This document shows positions 25,337 to 64,000 of a stretch of 64,000 nt of DNA, one piece after another. The stretch is from Chloroflexota bacterium (GTDB taxonomy: Bacteria > Chloroflexota > Limnocylindria > P2-11E). Numbering within the stretch: the first letter of the stretch is position 1; each line of letters starts with the position of its first letter. The DNA is taken from assembly GCA_038040265.1 (NCBI GenBank), contig JBBPIP010000013.1, forward strand, positions 5,546 to 69,545, read 5' to 3'. The notes under the pieces were generated by a model. The model was not told the origin of the DNA and did not search any database. It was given only the letters and a program-made list of their open reading frames with translations. The translations under genes were made by a program, and so were the position numbers.

Positions 25337-25344
25337 GTGGTCGG

Positions 25345-25429
25345 TGCCGGAGGAGGGATTTGAACCCTCACGGGCTTTTCAACCCAAGAGATTTTGAGTC
25401 TCTCATGTCTGCCATTTCATCACTCCGGC
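25345..25429 (-). tRNA. tRNA-Leu (anticodon CAA)
   Basis: GCCGGAG/CTCCGGC acceptor stem, AGAGA-CTCAAAA-TCTCT anticodon arm, long variable arm, GGTTCAAATCC T-arm; CCA not encoded; TAGAAT -10 at 25444-25439. Confidence 0.97.
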
Positions 25430-61380: not shown

Positions 61381-61385
61381 TGCGT

Positions 61386-61440
61386 CTGTCGTCAAAATTG
61401 ACGACAGCTTTCGACGTCTTGTCGTCACTTTTGACGACAG
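61386..61440. repeat. Two tandem 22-bp palindromes TGTCGTCA-N4-TGACGACA (33-bp period)
   Basis: CTGTCGTCAAAATTGACGACAG (61386-61407) and TTGTCGTCACTTTTGACGACAG (61419-61440). Confidence 0.9.
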
Positions 61441-61494
61441 GTTTCGCACCCCTGTCACCTTCCCACGGCGTCGTGTTCATGCGTAGATACACAG

Positions 61495-62301
61495 ATGGGC
61501 AAAGGGTGGGCGAAGGGACTTACCGCGGCAACGGATCCTCGCATTGCAAGAGCCGCCGCGGCGCATCGCGGGCTGATCTACCAGCGCCTGACACCCTTCG
61601 AGGAATGCCGCTGGCCGATCGCAGGGCGTACGACGCTCCCCCTGGCCTGGTCCGACGAAATGGCCTACATCGTCGGGTTGACGGCCACGGACGGTTGCCT
61701 CTTCACGGGTAGGCGGAAAATCAATTTCAAGTCGGCCGACCGGCAGCTCGTCGAGACGTACCTCTCGGTTTTGGGCAGAACGAATCGCGTGAAACAGGCG
61801 CGCACCAGAAAAGATGGCGTCGTGTACTTCACCGAGTTCAGCGACGCGAGTTTGTACGAGTGGTTCCGGTCAACTGGGCTCACGCCGCGCAAGAGCCTTA
61901 CCTTGGGAGCCATCGACGTGCCGGACTCGTACGTGCCATCGCTAGCTCGCGGGCTGATGGACGGCGACGGGAGCATTCAGAATTTCGTGCACGCGCCGAC
62001 GCGCGAAAGGTATCCCGACTATCGCTACGAGCGCCTCTGGGTCTCTTTCAATTCAGCGAGCAAGACGCACATCGAGTGGCTTCGCGCTCGGCTTCGCAGT
62101 ATCGCCAAAGGGGACGGCTATCTACATGTCGCACATCGCGATGGACGTCATGACTTCTACACCCTCAGGTATGGAAAAGCGTGCGCGATCGAACTTCTAA
62201 ATCAGTTCTACGCCGACGCCAGTTCCCCTCGCCTGCTTCGGAAGTGGCGCCTTTGGGATGACTATGTTGCCCGCAGTCTCAGTGCGGAAGGGGGGATTTG
62301 A
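61495..62301 (+). CDS. Free-standing double-motif LAGLIDADG homing endonuclease with NUMOD3-like N-terminus
   Basis: Motifs AYIVGLTATDGCL and LARGLMDGDGSI; GLTPRKSLT; N-terminal WAKGLTAATDPRI; more A/T-ending codons than flanking genes; last 19 nt overlap tRNA-Leu antisense. Confidence 0.88.
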   Translation: MGKGWAKGLTAATDPRIARAAAAHRGLIYQRLTPFEECRWPIAGRTTLPLAWSDEMAYIVGLTATDGCLFTGRRKINFKSADRQLVETYLSVLGRTNRVKQARTRKDGVVYFTEFSDASLYEWFRSTGLTPRKSLTLGAIDVPDSYVPSLARGLMDGDGSIQNFVHAPTRERYPDYRYERLWVSFNSASKTHIEWLRARLRSIAKGDGYLHVAHRDGRHDFYTLRYGKACAIELLNQFYADASSPRLLRKWRLWDDYVARSLSAEGGI

Positions 62302-62366
62302 ACCCCCAAGCCCTTGCGGGCAATAGGCCCTGAACCTATCGCGTCTGCCGGTTCCGCCACTTCCGC
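62283..62366 (-). tRNA. tRNA-Leu (anticodon CAG)
   Basis: GCGGAAG/CTTCCGC acceptor stem, ATAGG-TTCAGGG-CCTAT anticodon arm, variable arm GCCCGCAAGGGC, GGGGGTTCAAATCCCCC T-arm; CCA not encoded; TAGAAT -10 at 62383-62378. Confidence 0.97.
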
Positions 62367-62424
62367 GTGACCATCCAATTCTAGCGGCGAGCGACCGTCA
62401 CGGCGACTGCATACGATTGCCACG

Positions 62425-63752: not shown

Positions 63753-63767
63753 GTACCATCGCCTCCG

Positions 63768-64000
63768 TTGTTCACGCGCGATGAGATCCGGCTGACGACG
63801 CTTTCCACCTGCGCCGGCTGAGGAGCCAAGCTGGGCCCCGGCCCGCTGGCGCAGGTACTGCGTCCGATGCGCGATCAAAAGAGTCCCGCGGAGCTGCTCG
63901 TCGGCCTCGACGTCGCCGACGACGCGGCCGTGTATCTCGTTGGGCCCGACACGGCGGTCGTCGAGACCCTCGACTTCTTTCCACCCATCGTCGATGACGC
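63768..64000 (+). CDS. selD: Selenophosphate synthetase, selenocysteine-containing; 5' part only, runs off the window
   Basis: TTG 63768 MFTRDEIRLTTLSTCAG-(TGA 63819-21)-GAKLGPGPLAQVL...LLVGLDVADDAAVY...VETLDFFPPIVDD; absent from the ORF track because of the in-frame UGA. Confidence 0.93.
63849..63863 (+). promoter_or_regulatory. Candidate bacterial SECIS apical hairpin
   Basis: GCGCAG-GTA-CTGCGT; G-first loop 33 nt after the UGA; resembles the E. coli fdhF apex GCAG-GU-CUGC. Confidence 0.55.

What the first reader, a model, noticed from the sequence alone, without database searches (positions are those of the whole stretch)
61381..62366. Free-standing LAGLIDADG endonuclease docked tail-to-tail into tRNA-Leu(CAG): candidate intron-less, tRNA-anchored mobile element
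The 268-aa ORF has two LAGLIDADG helices with their acidic residues (TATDG, MDGDG). It also has an N-terminal WAKGLTAATDPRI motif similar to NUMOD3-type repeats of phage endonucleases. It is not in an intron or intein, since the tRNA and neighbouring genes are uninterrupted. Its last codons and TGA come from the antisense acceptor stem and T-arm (62283-62301), which implies a join right at the tRNA 3' end. No integrase, transposase or att duplication is visible, and codon usage is less GC-biased than the host genes. Intron-less homing near tRNA genes is established for phage T4 SegB. A roughly 0.9-kb chromosomal unit of palindromic operators plus monomeric LAGLIDADG at a bacterial tRNA is not a system I can name. 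Domestication as a WhiA-like regulator is an alternative, and whiA is absent from its usual place near rapZ here.
Basis: partly seen in the sequence, partly recalled or inferred. Interest (0 to 1): 0.75.

Follow-up and report, generated by a model that had tools for sequence, protein, structure and literature searches.

The report
Homing-endonuclease gene tied to leucine tRNA genes
This is an intact, free-standing LAGLIDADG "homing endonuclease" gene from a large, apparently undescribed family of selfish genes that sit flush against leucine-tRNA genes in several bacterial phyla, and here it shares its control region with the cell's DNA-uptake genes.

Summary
Window 61495-62301(+) encodes a 268-aa two-domain LAGLIDADG protein. 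Both catalytic Asp residues are kept (D66, D158). The AlphaFold model has pLDDT 88 and its best PDB match is I-Tsp061I. The last 20 nt of the ORF are antisense to tRNA-Leu(CAG) (62282-62366, minus strand).

- About 50 copies in Limnocylindria relatives, and distant homologues (28-37% identity) in Patescibacteria, Planctomycetia, Omnitrophota and a deltaproteobacterial MAG, almost all have a tRNA-Leu gene at the 3' end of the ORF. The tRNA can face either way.
- The gene is patchy: 28 of 61 relatives have it.
- Several copies are frameshifted.
- Two internal-deletion remnants and several empty sites exist at the same syntenic loci.
- Genomes with nearly identical flanking genes carry alleles only about 50% identical, or the tRNA in the opposite orientation.
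- Intact copies are under purifying selection (dN/dS about 0.1).

This is the behaviour of a homing endonuclease gene that turns over, not of a WhiA-like host regulator.

- The N-terminus is not NUMOD3.
- The upstream palindromes are a host operator. They also precede comEA-comEC, including in LAGLIDADG-free genomes, and they co-vary with that site between genera.

Cleavage activity and the target site remain untested.

The parts
61386..61407 (.). Operator palindrome 1, CTGTCGTCA-AAAT-TGACGACAG (22 bp)
   Evidence: The motif TGTCGTCA-N4-TGACGACA occurs 1-4 times per genome of the genus, and 0 times for the reversed control. The other conserved site lies upstream of comEA-comEC, also in LAGLIDADG-free genomes.
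61420..61439 (.). Operator palindrome 2, TGTCGTCA-CTTT-TGACGACA, starting 33 nt after the core of palindrome 1
   Evidence: One or two such sites are conserved in the leaders of most Limnocylindria copies. Variant motifs co-vary with the comEA upstream region in G022, G031 and G037.
61460..61489 (+). Inferred promoter: -35-like TTCCCA (61460-61465), 18-nt spacer, -10-like TAGATA (61484-61489). It ends 5 nt before the ATG, so the mRNA is probably leaderless.
   Evidence: The block CTTCCCAC ... TGCGTAGAT(A/G) is conserved 5-7 nt before the start codon in many copies, and there is no Shine-Dalgarno sequence. This is inference only: the strict sigma-70 scan found nothing here.
61495..62301 (+). 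Free-standing single-chain LAGLIDADG endonuclease gene (268 aa). Motif 1 is aa 57-68 (D66) and motif 2 is aa 149-160 (D158). The N-terminal 53 aa are a family-specific extension.
   Evidence: Alignments A1 and A2 show D66, G67, P131-L135 and G157/G159 invariant and D158 at 90% or more. The AF2 model has pLDDT 87.9. Foldseek top hits are I-Tsp061I, intein endonuclease domains, I-AniI, I-DmoI and WhiA. dN/dS is about 0.1.
62282..62366 (-). tRNA-Leu(CAG), the only CAG isoacceptor found in the assembly. Its 3' end overlaps the ORF end by 20 nt, in convergent orientation.
   Evidence: The same tRNA allele sits beside clade I alleles, clade II alleles and a deletion remnant in relatives.
62378..62383 (-). 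-10 box TAGAAT of the tRNA promoter, 11 nt upstream of the tRNA 5' end
   Evidence: The same TAGAAT/TACAAT box precedes the tRNA at the same spacing in both orientations in relatives. This is inference from conservation.

Best explanation
The ORF is a free-standing, single-chain (two-domain) LAGLIDADG homing endonuclease gene. It belongs to a family whose members live in the spacer next to tRNA-Leu genes.

Shown here:
- The fold and the catalytic residues.
- A near-absolute linkage of the family to tRNA-Leu genes (anticodons CAG, GAG, CAA, TAG, TAA) in Limnocylindria (Chloroflexota) and in distant phyla.
- A patchy distribution, frameshifted copies, internal-deletion remnants and empty sites at syntenic loci.
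- Deeply diverged alleles, and flipped tRNA orientation, in genomes whose flanking genes are nearly identical.
- Purifying selection on intact copies.

Inferred:
- The protein cuts alleles that lack the gene, at or near the tRNA-Leu gene. This is the only sequence common to all occupied loci.
- Double-strand-break repair then copies the gene in. The conserved tRNA and the neighbouring genes serve as homology arms. This is intron-less homing, with rare jumps between tRNA-Leu isoacceptor loci.
- After fixation the gene decays and is lost, then re-invades.

Expression (inferred): the gene is read from a leaderless promoter preceded by a palindromic operator. The cell also uses that operator in front of comEA-comEC-holA. 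The endonuclease is therefore probably made together with the DNA-uptake machinery, under a host factor.
For: Protein:
- Pfam LAGLIDADG_3.
- Both motifs align to I-Tsp061I.
- D66 is invariant and D158 is kept in 90% or more of 87 sequences spanning several phyla.
- AF2 pLDDT 87.9; all Foldseek top hits are LAGLIDADG proteins, nearly all homing endonucleases (WhiA among them).

Linkage to tRNA-Leu:
- 30 of 31 loci.
- 17 of 18 further loci.
- 53 of 56 GTDB loci, including CPR, Planctomycetia, Omnitrophota and a Deltaproteobacteria MAG.
- All strong hits in a CPR order lie 17-57 nt upstream of tRNA-Leu.
- Two apparent exceptions are secondary events. One is an IS insertion that left a 14-nt tRNA fragment beside the ORF. 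The other is a decayed tRNA pseudogene beside the ORF.

Mobility and turnover:
- Present in 28 of 61 relatives, and absent from the other families of the class.
- Present in 34 of 121 genomes of one CPR order.
- Pseudogenes exist.
- Deletion remnants in G011 and G018, and empty sites.
- On the flank tree, alleles of clade I and clade II (the two deeply diverged allele groups at the CAG locus, about 52% identical), remnant alleles and empty alleles are intermixed.
- Flank dS is 0.4-0.6, against LAGLIDADG dS of 1.3 to saturation in the same genome pairs.
- Clades largely track isoacceptor loci, with a few switches.
- dN/dS is 0.06-0.13.

Regulation:
- The operator census.
- A conserved comEA site, also in LAGLIDADG-free genomes that are 95-97% complete.
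- ComEA is confirmed by its SLBB and HHH_3 domains, and ComEC and HolA follow it.
- Genome-specific co-variation of the comEA upstream region and the LAGLIDADG leaders (Mann-Whitney p=0.005).
Against: - No cleavage activity or target site is known, and none could be deduced.
- The gene sits outside the tRNA, so its insertion does not obviously destroy a target inside the tRNA. Self-immunity is unexplained.
- tRNA-Leu genes next to the endonuclease are no more diverse than a control tRNA-Val 2 kb away. There is therefore no signature of an arms race on, or co-conversion of, the tRNA.
- The two loci (CAG and GAG) are occupied across a whole family, and dN/dS is low. A host function would give the same pattern.
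- In 5 of 9 genomes tested, the leader shows no detectable similarity to the comEA upstream region.
- The promoter is inferred only from conservation.
- Nearly all sequences are MAG contigs, so some frameshifts may be assembly errors.
Confidence: 0.72

Rival explanations
1. The protein is a domesticated LAGLIDADG protein with a host function. It could be a DNA-binding regulator of tRNA-Leu genes, or a nuclease or recombination factor belonging to the competence regulon, kept by selection on the host.
For: - dN/dS is about 0.1.
- The same two loci are occupied across genera and families.
- The cis-regulatory module is shared with comEA-comEC.
- WhiA is among the structural neighbours, and no canonical WhiA HTH is present in this genome.
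Against: - The gene is absent from genomes of the same family that are 95-97% complete (G025, G028, G029).
- It is present in 28% of genomes in a CPR order.
- There are frameshifted copies and deletion remnants.
- Alleles only 50% identical are swapped between near-identical backgrounds.
- Catalytic Asp residues are retained, unlike in WhiA.
- There is no WhiA-type C-terminal HTH.
Confidence: 0.12
2. The endonuclease gene and a cleavage-resistant tRNA-Leu form one 'cleave-and-rescue' cassette that moves as a unit. The enzyme destroys resident tRNA-Leu genes and the cassette replaces them. On this view the tRNA is cargo, not just a landmark.
For: - Within one genus the tRNA-Leu(CAG) at the same syntenic site differs strongly in sequence, and even in orientation, with its own promoter travelling with it.
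- In family f2, the second family of the same order, the ORF-tRNA pair is inverted as a block.
- A decayed tRNA copy lies beside a live one in G026.
- Direct-repeat fragments of the tRNA 3' end, 12-22 nt long, lie downstream of some copies.
Against: - The same tRNA allele accompanies clade I alleles, clade II alleles and a remnant.
- Empty sites also show both tRNA orientations.
- The control tRNA-Val is equally diverse.
- No tRNA fragment is present at the window locus.
Confidence: 0.2
3. The gene is a relic of another kind of element: a tRNA-Leu group I intron or intein endonuclease that escaped, or the leftover cargo of an integrase-type island that used tRNA-Leu as its attachment site.
For: - tRNA-Leu is a classical host of group I introns and a classical integration site (established knowledge).
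- Some loci carry direct repeats of the tRNA 3' end.
- Distant phage homologues split a DNA polymerase gene.
Against: - There is no intron RNA family in the region.
- All linked tRNAs are of normal length, 74-91 nt.
- No integrase or att repeat is present at this locus, and the unit is only about 0.9 kb.
- The same compact arrangement recurs in more than 100 loci.
Confidence: 0.04

Closest known systems
I-Tsp061I and I-DmoI (archaeal rRNA-intron-encoded single-chain LAGLIDADG homing endonucleases; PDB 2dch, 2vs7)
   Same: Two-domain monomer of about 200 aa. Both LAGLIDADG helices end in a catalytic Asp. These are the best sequence and fold matches.
   Different: Only about 20% identical. The gene here is not in an intron. 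It has an extra 53-aa N-terminal extension. It lies beside a tRNA gene rather than inside an rRNA gene.
Phage T4 SegB (free-standing GIY-YIG endonuclease in the T4 tRNA gene cluster; PMC2330249)
   Same: A free-standing endonuclease gene embedded among tRNA genes. It shows intron-less homing with co-conversion of flanking tRNA genes. SegB's recognition site includes the conserved T-psi-C stem-loop sequence of a tRNA gene.
   Different: A different nuclease fold (GIY-YIG). SegB spreads in phage co-infections. The family here is chromosomal in bacteria, specific to one amino-acid class of tRNA, spread over several phyla, and its activity is untested.
Collaborative or free-standing homing such as F-CphI beside psbA in cyanophage S-PM2 (PMC6083498)
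   Same: A free-standing endonuclease gene placed next to the conserved gene it probably targets.
   Different: There an intron in the target gene gives immunity. Here the tRNA has no intron, and the source of immunity is unknown.
WhiA (bacterial LAGLIDADG-derived transcription factor)
   Same: A chromosomal, non-intron protein with two LAGLIDADG domains. It is among the structural neighbours.
   Different: WhiA has lost the catalytic residues, carries a C-terminal HTH (PF02650) and is conserved vertically. This protein keeps both Asp residues, lacks that HTH and is patchy, with pseudogenes.
LAGLIDADG endonucleases in rRNA-gene insertion sequences of CPR bacteria (PMC11270868)
   Same: LAGLIDADG homing endonuclease genes that target highly conserved RNA genes in the same phyla where distant relatives of this family occur.
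   Different: Those lie inside rRNA genes. That paper does not mention tRNA at all.
I-TevI autorepression through an operator resembling its homing site (recalled from the literature, not checked here)
   Same: A homing endonuclease gene with a palindromic operator over its promoter.
   Different: Here the operator also controls comEA-comEC and persists in genomes without the endonuclease. A host factor is therefore the likelier binder.

Membership tests
LAGLIDADG homing endonucleases (single-chain) | Two LAGLIDADG motifs forming the interface helices of two alpha-beta-beta-alpha-beta-beta-alpha domains | tested here: met
   Pfam LAGLIDADG_3. Motif alignment to 2dch. AF2 pLDDT 87.9 with the expected order of secondary-structure elements. 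Foldseek top 50 are all LAGLIDADG proteins.
LAGLIDADG homing endonucleases (single-chain) | An acidic catalytic residue at the end of each motif | tested here: met
   D66 is invariant and D158 is kept in 90% or more of 87 sequences from several phyla.
LAGLIDADG homing endonucleases (single-chain) | Site-specific cleavage of an 18-22 bp target, leaving 4-nt 3' overhangs | not testable with these tools
   No biochemical data. No target could be deduced from empty versus occupied alleles, because the whole spacer is replaced.
Free-standing homing endonuclease genes (intron-less homing) | Presence/absence polymorphism at one syntenic site, with decay and loss | tested here: met
   Empty sites, two deletion remnants and pseudogenes.
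Free-standing homing endonuclease genes (intron-less homing) | Gene history discordant with that of the flanking host genes | tested here: met
   Flank tree compared with allele clades. dS of flanks compared with dS of the gene.
Free-standing homing endonuclease genes (intron-less homing) | Biased inheritance and co-conversion of flanking markers | tested here: inconclusive
   The tRNA allele and its orientation vary between close relatives. However, a control tRNA-Val is equally diverse. No cross can be done in silico.
WhiA | C-terminal HTH (PF02650), loss of catalytic residues, universal vertical conservation | tested here: not met
   No PF02650 in the protein or the genome. Catalytic Asp residues are kept. 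The distribution is patchy.
NUMOD3-bearing phage endonucleases | NUMOD3 DNA-binding repeat | tested here: not met
   A Pfam scan of residues 1-55 at E up to 10 gives only a sub-threshold TetR_N match.
Intron- or intein-encoded endonuclease | ORF embedded in a group I intron or an in-frame intein | tested here: not met
   Rfam finds only the tRNA. The neighbouring genes and the tRNA are uninterrupted.
tRNA-targeting integrative island | An integrase plus a direct repeat of the tRNA 3' end | tested here: not met
   No integrase among the neighbours. No tRNA fragment of 12 nt or more at this locus.

The most novel reading that the evidence does not exclude
The endonuclease is wired into the competence regulon. 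It fires when the cell takes up DNA, which is the only moment when a chromosomal homing gene in a bacterium meets an allele that lacks it. That would make this a transformation-coupled homing system, or an anti-curing system. In the second case the enzyme would cut recombinants in which incoming DNA has just deleted the gene. It would also be one branch of a multi-phylum superfamily of LAGLIDADG genes, each lineage tied to one tRNA identity (Leu here; Asp/Met and Cys paralogues in CPR and Planctomycetia).
Probability: 0.3. Interest if true: 0.85.

Novelty: new variant of a known kind. Interest (0 to 1): 0.72.

Why it matters
Free-standing homing endonucleases are well studied in phages and organelles. 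Chromosomal bacterial examples with a defined genomic niche are rare.

This finding defines a family with about 450 clusters (at 50% identity) at E<=1e-30. Its members sit beside tRNA-Leu genes from soil Chloroflexota to ultra-small Patescibacteria. It also comes with natural occupied, decayed and empty alleles.

That gives:
- A ready set of candidate new LAGLIDADG specificities aimed at tRNA genes.
- A natural system for testing the invasion-decay-loss cycle of homing genes in bacteria.
- Through the operator shared with comEA-comEC, a testable link between selfish endonucleases and natural transformation, which has been argued to cure genomes of such elements.
- A possible explanation for why tRNA-Leu genes at a fixed locus flip orientation between close relatives.

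Tried and rejected
1. A tRNA fossil in the ORF tail. The 11-nt match of 62239-62249 to the tRNA 5' end is the conserved codon run for the R-K-W motif, which is present in all family members. Rejected.
2. Accelerated or arms-race evolution of the linked tRNA. Mean pairwise identity of tRNA-Leu(GAG) is 82.8%, against 80.7% for an unlinked tRNA-Val(TAC) in the same loci (p=0.28). Rejected.
3. NUMOD3 in the N-terminus. Not found.
4. A group I intron or other RNA in the region. None.
5. The palindromes as the endonuclease's own target or as private operators. The same operator precedes comEA in LAGLIDADG-free genomes G025 and G028 (95-97% complete), and in G003 and G019. A host factor is therefore more likely. 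Binding by the endonuclease as well is not excluded.
6. The palindromes as terminators. In the GAG-locus leaders the related, degenerate motifs lie between divergent genes, and the exact palindromes are conserved in sequence rather than by compensatory change.
7. The first AlphaFold run, on 16 sequences, was too poor to use (pLDDT 60). A run on 87 sequences solved this.
8. Remnants at the other tRNA-Leu loci of this genome (CAA at window 25343-25429, TAG, TAA). None found.
9. Carriage on known phages or plasmids. Only relatives at 25-33% identity were found, for example a gene splitting the DNA polymerase of a T5-like phage.
10. Reads from public sequencing runs, to look for mixed alleles or expression.
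11. A strict sigma-70 scan found no promoter.
12. The exact insertion boundaries could not be defined. The whole spacer between the flanking gene and the tRNA is replaced in empty alleles.
Full report
THE OBJECT

Window 61495-62301(+) is an open frame of 268 codons. It matches Pfam LAGLIDADG_3 above the curated threshold. Its only PDB sequence match is the archaeal intron endonuclease I-Tsp061I. Both LAGLIDADG motifs align there: AYIVGLTATDGC with DYLCGLIAADGH, and ARGLMDGDGS with IIGFIDGDGW.

ARAGORN places tRNA-Leu(CAG) at 62282-62366 on the minus strand, and Rfam agrees. The last six codons and the TGA of the ORF are therefore antisense to the acceptor stem and T-arm.

Two palindromes of the form TGTCGTCA-N4-TGACGACA start 5 nt after the stop codon of the upstream solute-binding-protein gene (SBP, family 5). 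Nothing else in 60800-63000 matches an Rfam family. The downstream gene is an intact FAD-dependent oxidoreductase, called OXRED below. A Pfam scan of residues 1-55 gives only a sub-threshold TetR-type HTH hit.

FOLD AND ACTIVE SITE

A first AlphaFold run on 16 sequences was poor. With 87 sequences the model reached pLDDT 87.9 and pTM 0.82. It shows two alpha-beta-beta-alpha-beta-beta-alpha domains behind a loosely structured 53-residue N-terminal extension.

Foldseek against the PDB returns I-Tsp061I first (E=1e-9). It is followed by intein endonuclease domains, I-AniI, I-DmoI/E-DreI, WhiA, I-SceI and the I-OnuI group.

Across the 87 sequences, which reach down to 26% identity, D66, G67, P131-R132-K133-S134-L135, G157 and G159 are invariant. 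D158 is kept in at least 90%. The protein therefore looks like a working single-chain LAGLIDADG endonuclease. No activity has been shown.

A SECOND COPY AND THE FAMILY

The assembly (37 contigs, 85% complete) holds a second copy 5 kb further along the same contig, outside the window at C13:71888-72672, on the minus strand. It is 71% identical over the first 174 residues. It is then shifted out of frame by one missing C in a C-run. This is either real decay or an assembly error.

This second copy lies directly upstream of tRNA-Leu(GAG) and is co-directional with it.

The big protein collection holds more than 1,000 relatives. Those that carry names are labelled Candidatus Limnocylindria or Chloroflexi MAGs. 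A profile search of 1.84 billion representatives gives 448 clusters at E<=1e-30 and 7,201 at E<=1e-10.

LINKAGE TO tRNA-Leu

Among 61 relatives, 28 have the gene. That is 17 of 21 genomes in the same genus, 9 of 15 in other genera of the family, one of two in a second family (f2) of the order, and none of 22 in other families of the class. Genomes that have it usually carry two or three copies.

- In 30 of the 31 first loci a tRNA-Leu gene lies at the 3' end of the ORF.
- The same holds in 17 of 18 further loci. The exception is a contig end.
- All isoacceptors occur as partners: CAG, GAG, CAA and TAG. Weak hits lie near TAA.
- The tRNA can be co-directional, with the ORF stop 5-50 nt before the tRNA 5' end and the tRNA's TAGAAT box in between. 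It can also be convergent, with the ORF running into the tRNA 3' end, as in the window. Among 39 intact copies, 21 are co-directional and 17 are convergent.
- Two apparent exceptions are secondary events. In G021 an IS with a 385-aa transposase separates the ORF, plus a 14-nt tRNA 3' fragment, from the tRNA. In G026 the ORF abuts a decayed tRNA-Leu(CAG) pseudogene, with a live copy 500 nt further on.

A scan of species-representative genomes found 56 loci, and 53 of them have a tRNA-Leu just after the ORF. These include relatives at 28-37% identity:
- in Patescibacteria, next to tRNA-Leu(GAG);
- in Planctomycetia, Omnitrophota and a deltaproteobacterial MAG, in the order tRNA-Cys, ORF, tRNA-Leu(TAA), tRNA-Val.

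In one Patescibacteria order, 34 of 121 genomes have a hit. Every strong hit is 17-57 nt upstream of a tRNA-Leu. More distant paralogues sit between tRNA-Met and tRNA-Asp, or just before tRNA-Cys. The linkage is a property of the family, not of this genome.

IS IT MOBILE?

Both loci are syntenic across the genus and beyond. One is SBP, ORF, tRNA-Leu(CAG), OXRED. The other is an efflux-pump gene (MATE), tRNA-Leu(GAG), ORF, and a gene I call DOWN2. Taken alone, that could mean vertical descent. Four lines of evidence speak against simple vertical descent.

1. Empty and decayed alleles.
   - At the CAG locus, G003 (same genus), G025, G028 and G030 have only a 50-110 nt spacer.
   - G011 keeps one palindrome, 46 nt of the ORF tail and a tRNA identical to that of the window. 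It is an internal-deletion remnant.
   - At the GAG locus, G018 is a similar remnant.
   - G022, G028 and G030 have just the tRNA promoter between DOWN2 and the tRNA.
2. Pseudogenes. At least eight copies carry frameshifts or stops.
3. Allele turnover.
   - The protein tree shows two deep clades at the CAG locus. I call them clade I, which contains the window copy, and clade II. They are about 52% identical.
   - It also shows two deep clades at the GAG locus, all within one genus.
   - On a tree of the flanking SBP and OXRED proteins, clade I, clade II, remnant and empty alleles are intermixed among near-identical backgrounds. Starred branches force at least four changes for each clade.
   - In such genome pairs the flanks have dS of 0.4-0.6. 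The endonuclease gene has dS from 1.3 to saturation.
   - The pair G000/G021 is co-divergent: dS is 0.79 for the gene against 0.63-0.66 for the flanks.
4. Flipping of the tRNA. Between genomes with the same flanks, the tRNA, with its promoter, flips orientation. In family f2 the ORF-tRNA pair is inverted as a block.

Intact copies are under purifying selection, with dN/dS of 0.06-0.13. Clades mostly stay with one isoacceptor locus, with a few switches: 10 changes against 20 expected.

This is the pattern expected for a homing endonuclease gene. It goes through invasion, fixation, decay and loss at allelic sites, with rare moves to paralogous tRNA-Leu loci.

WHAT DID NOT HOLD UP

- The match between the ORF tail and the tRNA 5' end is just the conserved R-K-W codons.
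- The linked tRNA-Leu genes are no more diverse than a tRNA-Val 2 kb away. I therefore have no evidence that the tRNA is the battleground, or that it is co-converted.
- The exact insertion boundaries and the target site could not be read from the alleles. The whole spacer differs between occupied and empty alleles.
- How the resident genome escapes cleavage is unknown.

THE PALINDROMES

The motif TGTCGTCA-N4-TGACGACA occurs only one to four times per genome in the genus. The reversed control never occurs.

Besides the endonuclease leaders there is one other conserved site. It lies between a DUF6941 gene downstream of leuS and comEA (SLBB plus HHH_3 domains). comEA is followed by comEC and holA.

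That site is present in genomes without any detectable copy of the endonuclease. These include G025 and G028, which are 95-97% complete.

The motif changes between genera, and it changes in step.
- G022 has GTCGTC-CGAAA-GGCGAC both at comEA and in its endonuclease leader.
- G037, in family f2, has a quite different CGGATGATC...ACGGATCG motif at comEA and in all three of its leaders.
- G031 shares a block of about 48 nt between the two.

A leader matches the comEA upstream region of its own genome best in 7 of 13 cases. Own-genome scores exceed cross-genome scores (p=0.005).

The simplest reading is a host DNA-binding factor that controls the DNA-uptake operon and also the endonuclease genes.

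A conserved TGCGTAGAT box lies 5-7 nt before the start codon, and there is no ribosome-binding site. This suggests a leaderless mRNA. It is inference only, because the strict promoter scan found nothing.

COMPARISON WITH WHAT IS KNOWN

Structurally the protein is a member of the single-chain LAGLIDADG endonucleases. In lifestyle it resembles the free-standing endonucleases of T-even phages.

The closest parallel is SegB. SegB lies in the T4 tRNA cluster, recognises a tRNA T-arm sequence, and drives inheritance of the surrounding tRNA genes (PMC2330249). SegB, however, is a GIY-YIG enzyme and it acts in phage crosses.

Four full-text searches found no description of LAGLIDADG genes tied to tRNA-Leu, or to tRNA genes in general, in bacterial chromosomes. 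The survey of LAGLIDADG genes in CPR rRNA insertions does not mention tRNA.

Known phages and plasmids hold only relatives at 25-33% identity. One of them splits a phage DNA polymerase gene.

Earlier notes of this scan report similar tRNA-linked LAGLIDADG families in archaea and Patescibacteria. I treated these as leads. I checked the bacterial part independently.

VERDICT

I rate it a new variant of a known kind. It is a chromosomal, tRNA-Leu-linked family of free-standing LAGLIDADG homing endonuclease genes that spans several phyla. In Limnocylindria it shares a control region with the competence genes.

Three things are still missing: cleavage activity, the target site and the regulator.

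Noticed in passing
outside the window: G000 contig C13:71752-72672 (would be about 66207-67127 in window numbering): A second family copy lies on the minus strand, directly upstream of tRNA-Leu(GAG) and co-directional with it. It is put out of frame by one missing C in a C-run after the second LAGLIDADG motif. This is either a pseudogene or an assembly error. Its leader has a degenerate version of the palindromes.
   Followed up: partly
G000 contig C2:25880-25976 (locus L169:1480-1576): The same palindromic operator, plus a half-site, lies upstream of comEA-comEC-holA, downstream of leuS and a DUF6941 gene. It is conserved across the genus and co-varies with the endonuclease leaders in other genera. 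The binding factor is unknown.
   Followed up: yes
window 25343-25429 (-): tRNA-Leu(CAA) here is an unoccupied site. The neighbouring convergent gene ends 6 nt from the tRNA 3' end, and no endonuclease remnant is present. In G004, G016, G017 and G021 the CAA gene has its own endonuclease clade.
   Followed up: partly
loci L001-L010, L033-L037 (CAG locus in relatives): The single-copy tRNA-Leu(CAG) gene, with its own -10 box, faces either way between the same two flanking genes in close relatives. This also holds in empty alleles (G028 on the plus strand, the others on the minus strand). No mechanism for the flip was found.
   Followed up: partly
L144, L145, L148 (tRNA-Met, ORF, tRNA-Asp); L122, L143 (ORF, tRNA-Cys); L146, L147, L151 (near tRNA-Met): In Patescibacteria and a Planctomycetia MAG, paralogous LAGLIDADG genes (27-32% identical to the Leu-linked ones) fill the gaps between other tRNA genes. 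This suggests a superfamily with lineages specific to particular tRNA identities.
   Followed up: partly
L131, L138, L141, L142 (CPR) and L006 (G017): Direct repeats of the last 12-22 nt of the tRNA-Leu gene lie 2-270 nt downstream of the complete tRNA. They look like leftovers of a replaced tRNA 3' end, or like att-type scars.
   Followed up: no
L046 (G021) and L026 (G026): In G021 an IS element with a 385-aa DDE transposase has inserted between the endonuclease ORF, plus a 14-nt tRNA fragment, and tRNA-Leu(CAA). In G026 a decayed tRNA-Leu(CAG) pseudogene abuts the ORF and a live copy lies 500 nt away.
   Followed up: partly
L067-L096: tRNA-Val(TAC), about 2 kb from the GAG-locus copy: tRNA-Val(TAC) at a syntenic position falls into two very different allele classes within the genus (GGGCAAC... 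and GGGGCCG...). tRNA gene replacement in this clade may therefore not be limited to tRNA-Leu.
   Followed up: no
window 63754-64000 and beyond: Between the two endonuclease copies lie genes for an FAD oxidoreductase, a SelD-like protein and a MATE transporter. The genome also has tRNA-Sec genes. Another first-reader note proposes an in-frame UGA in selD. I did not examine this.
   Followed up: no
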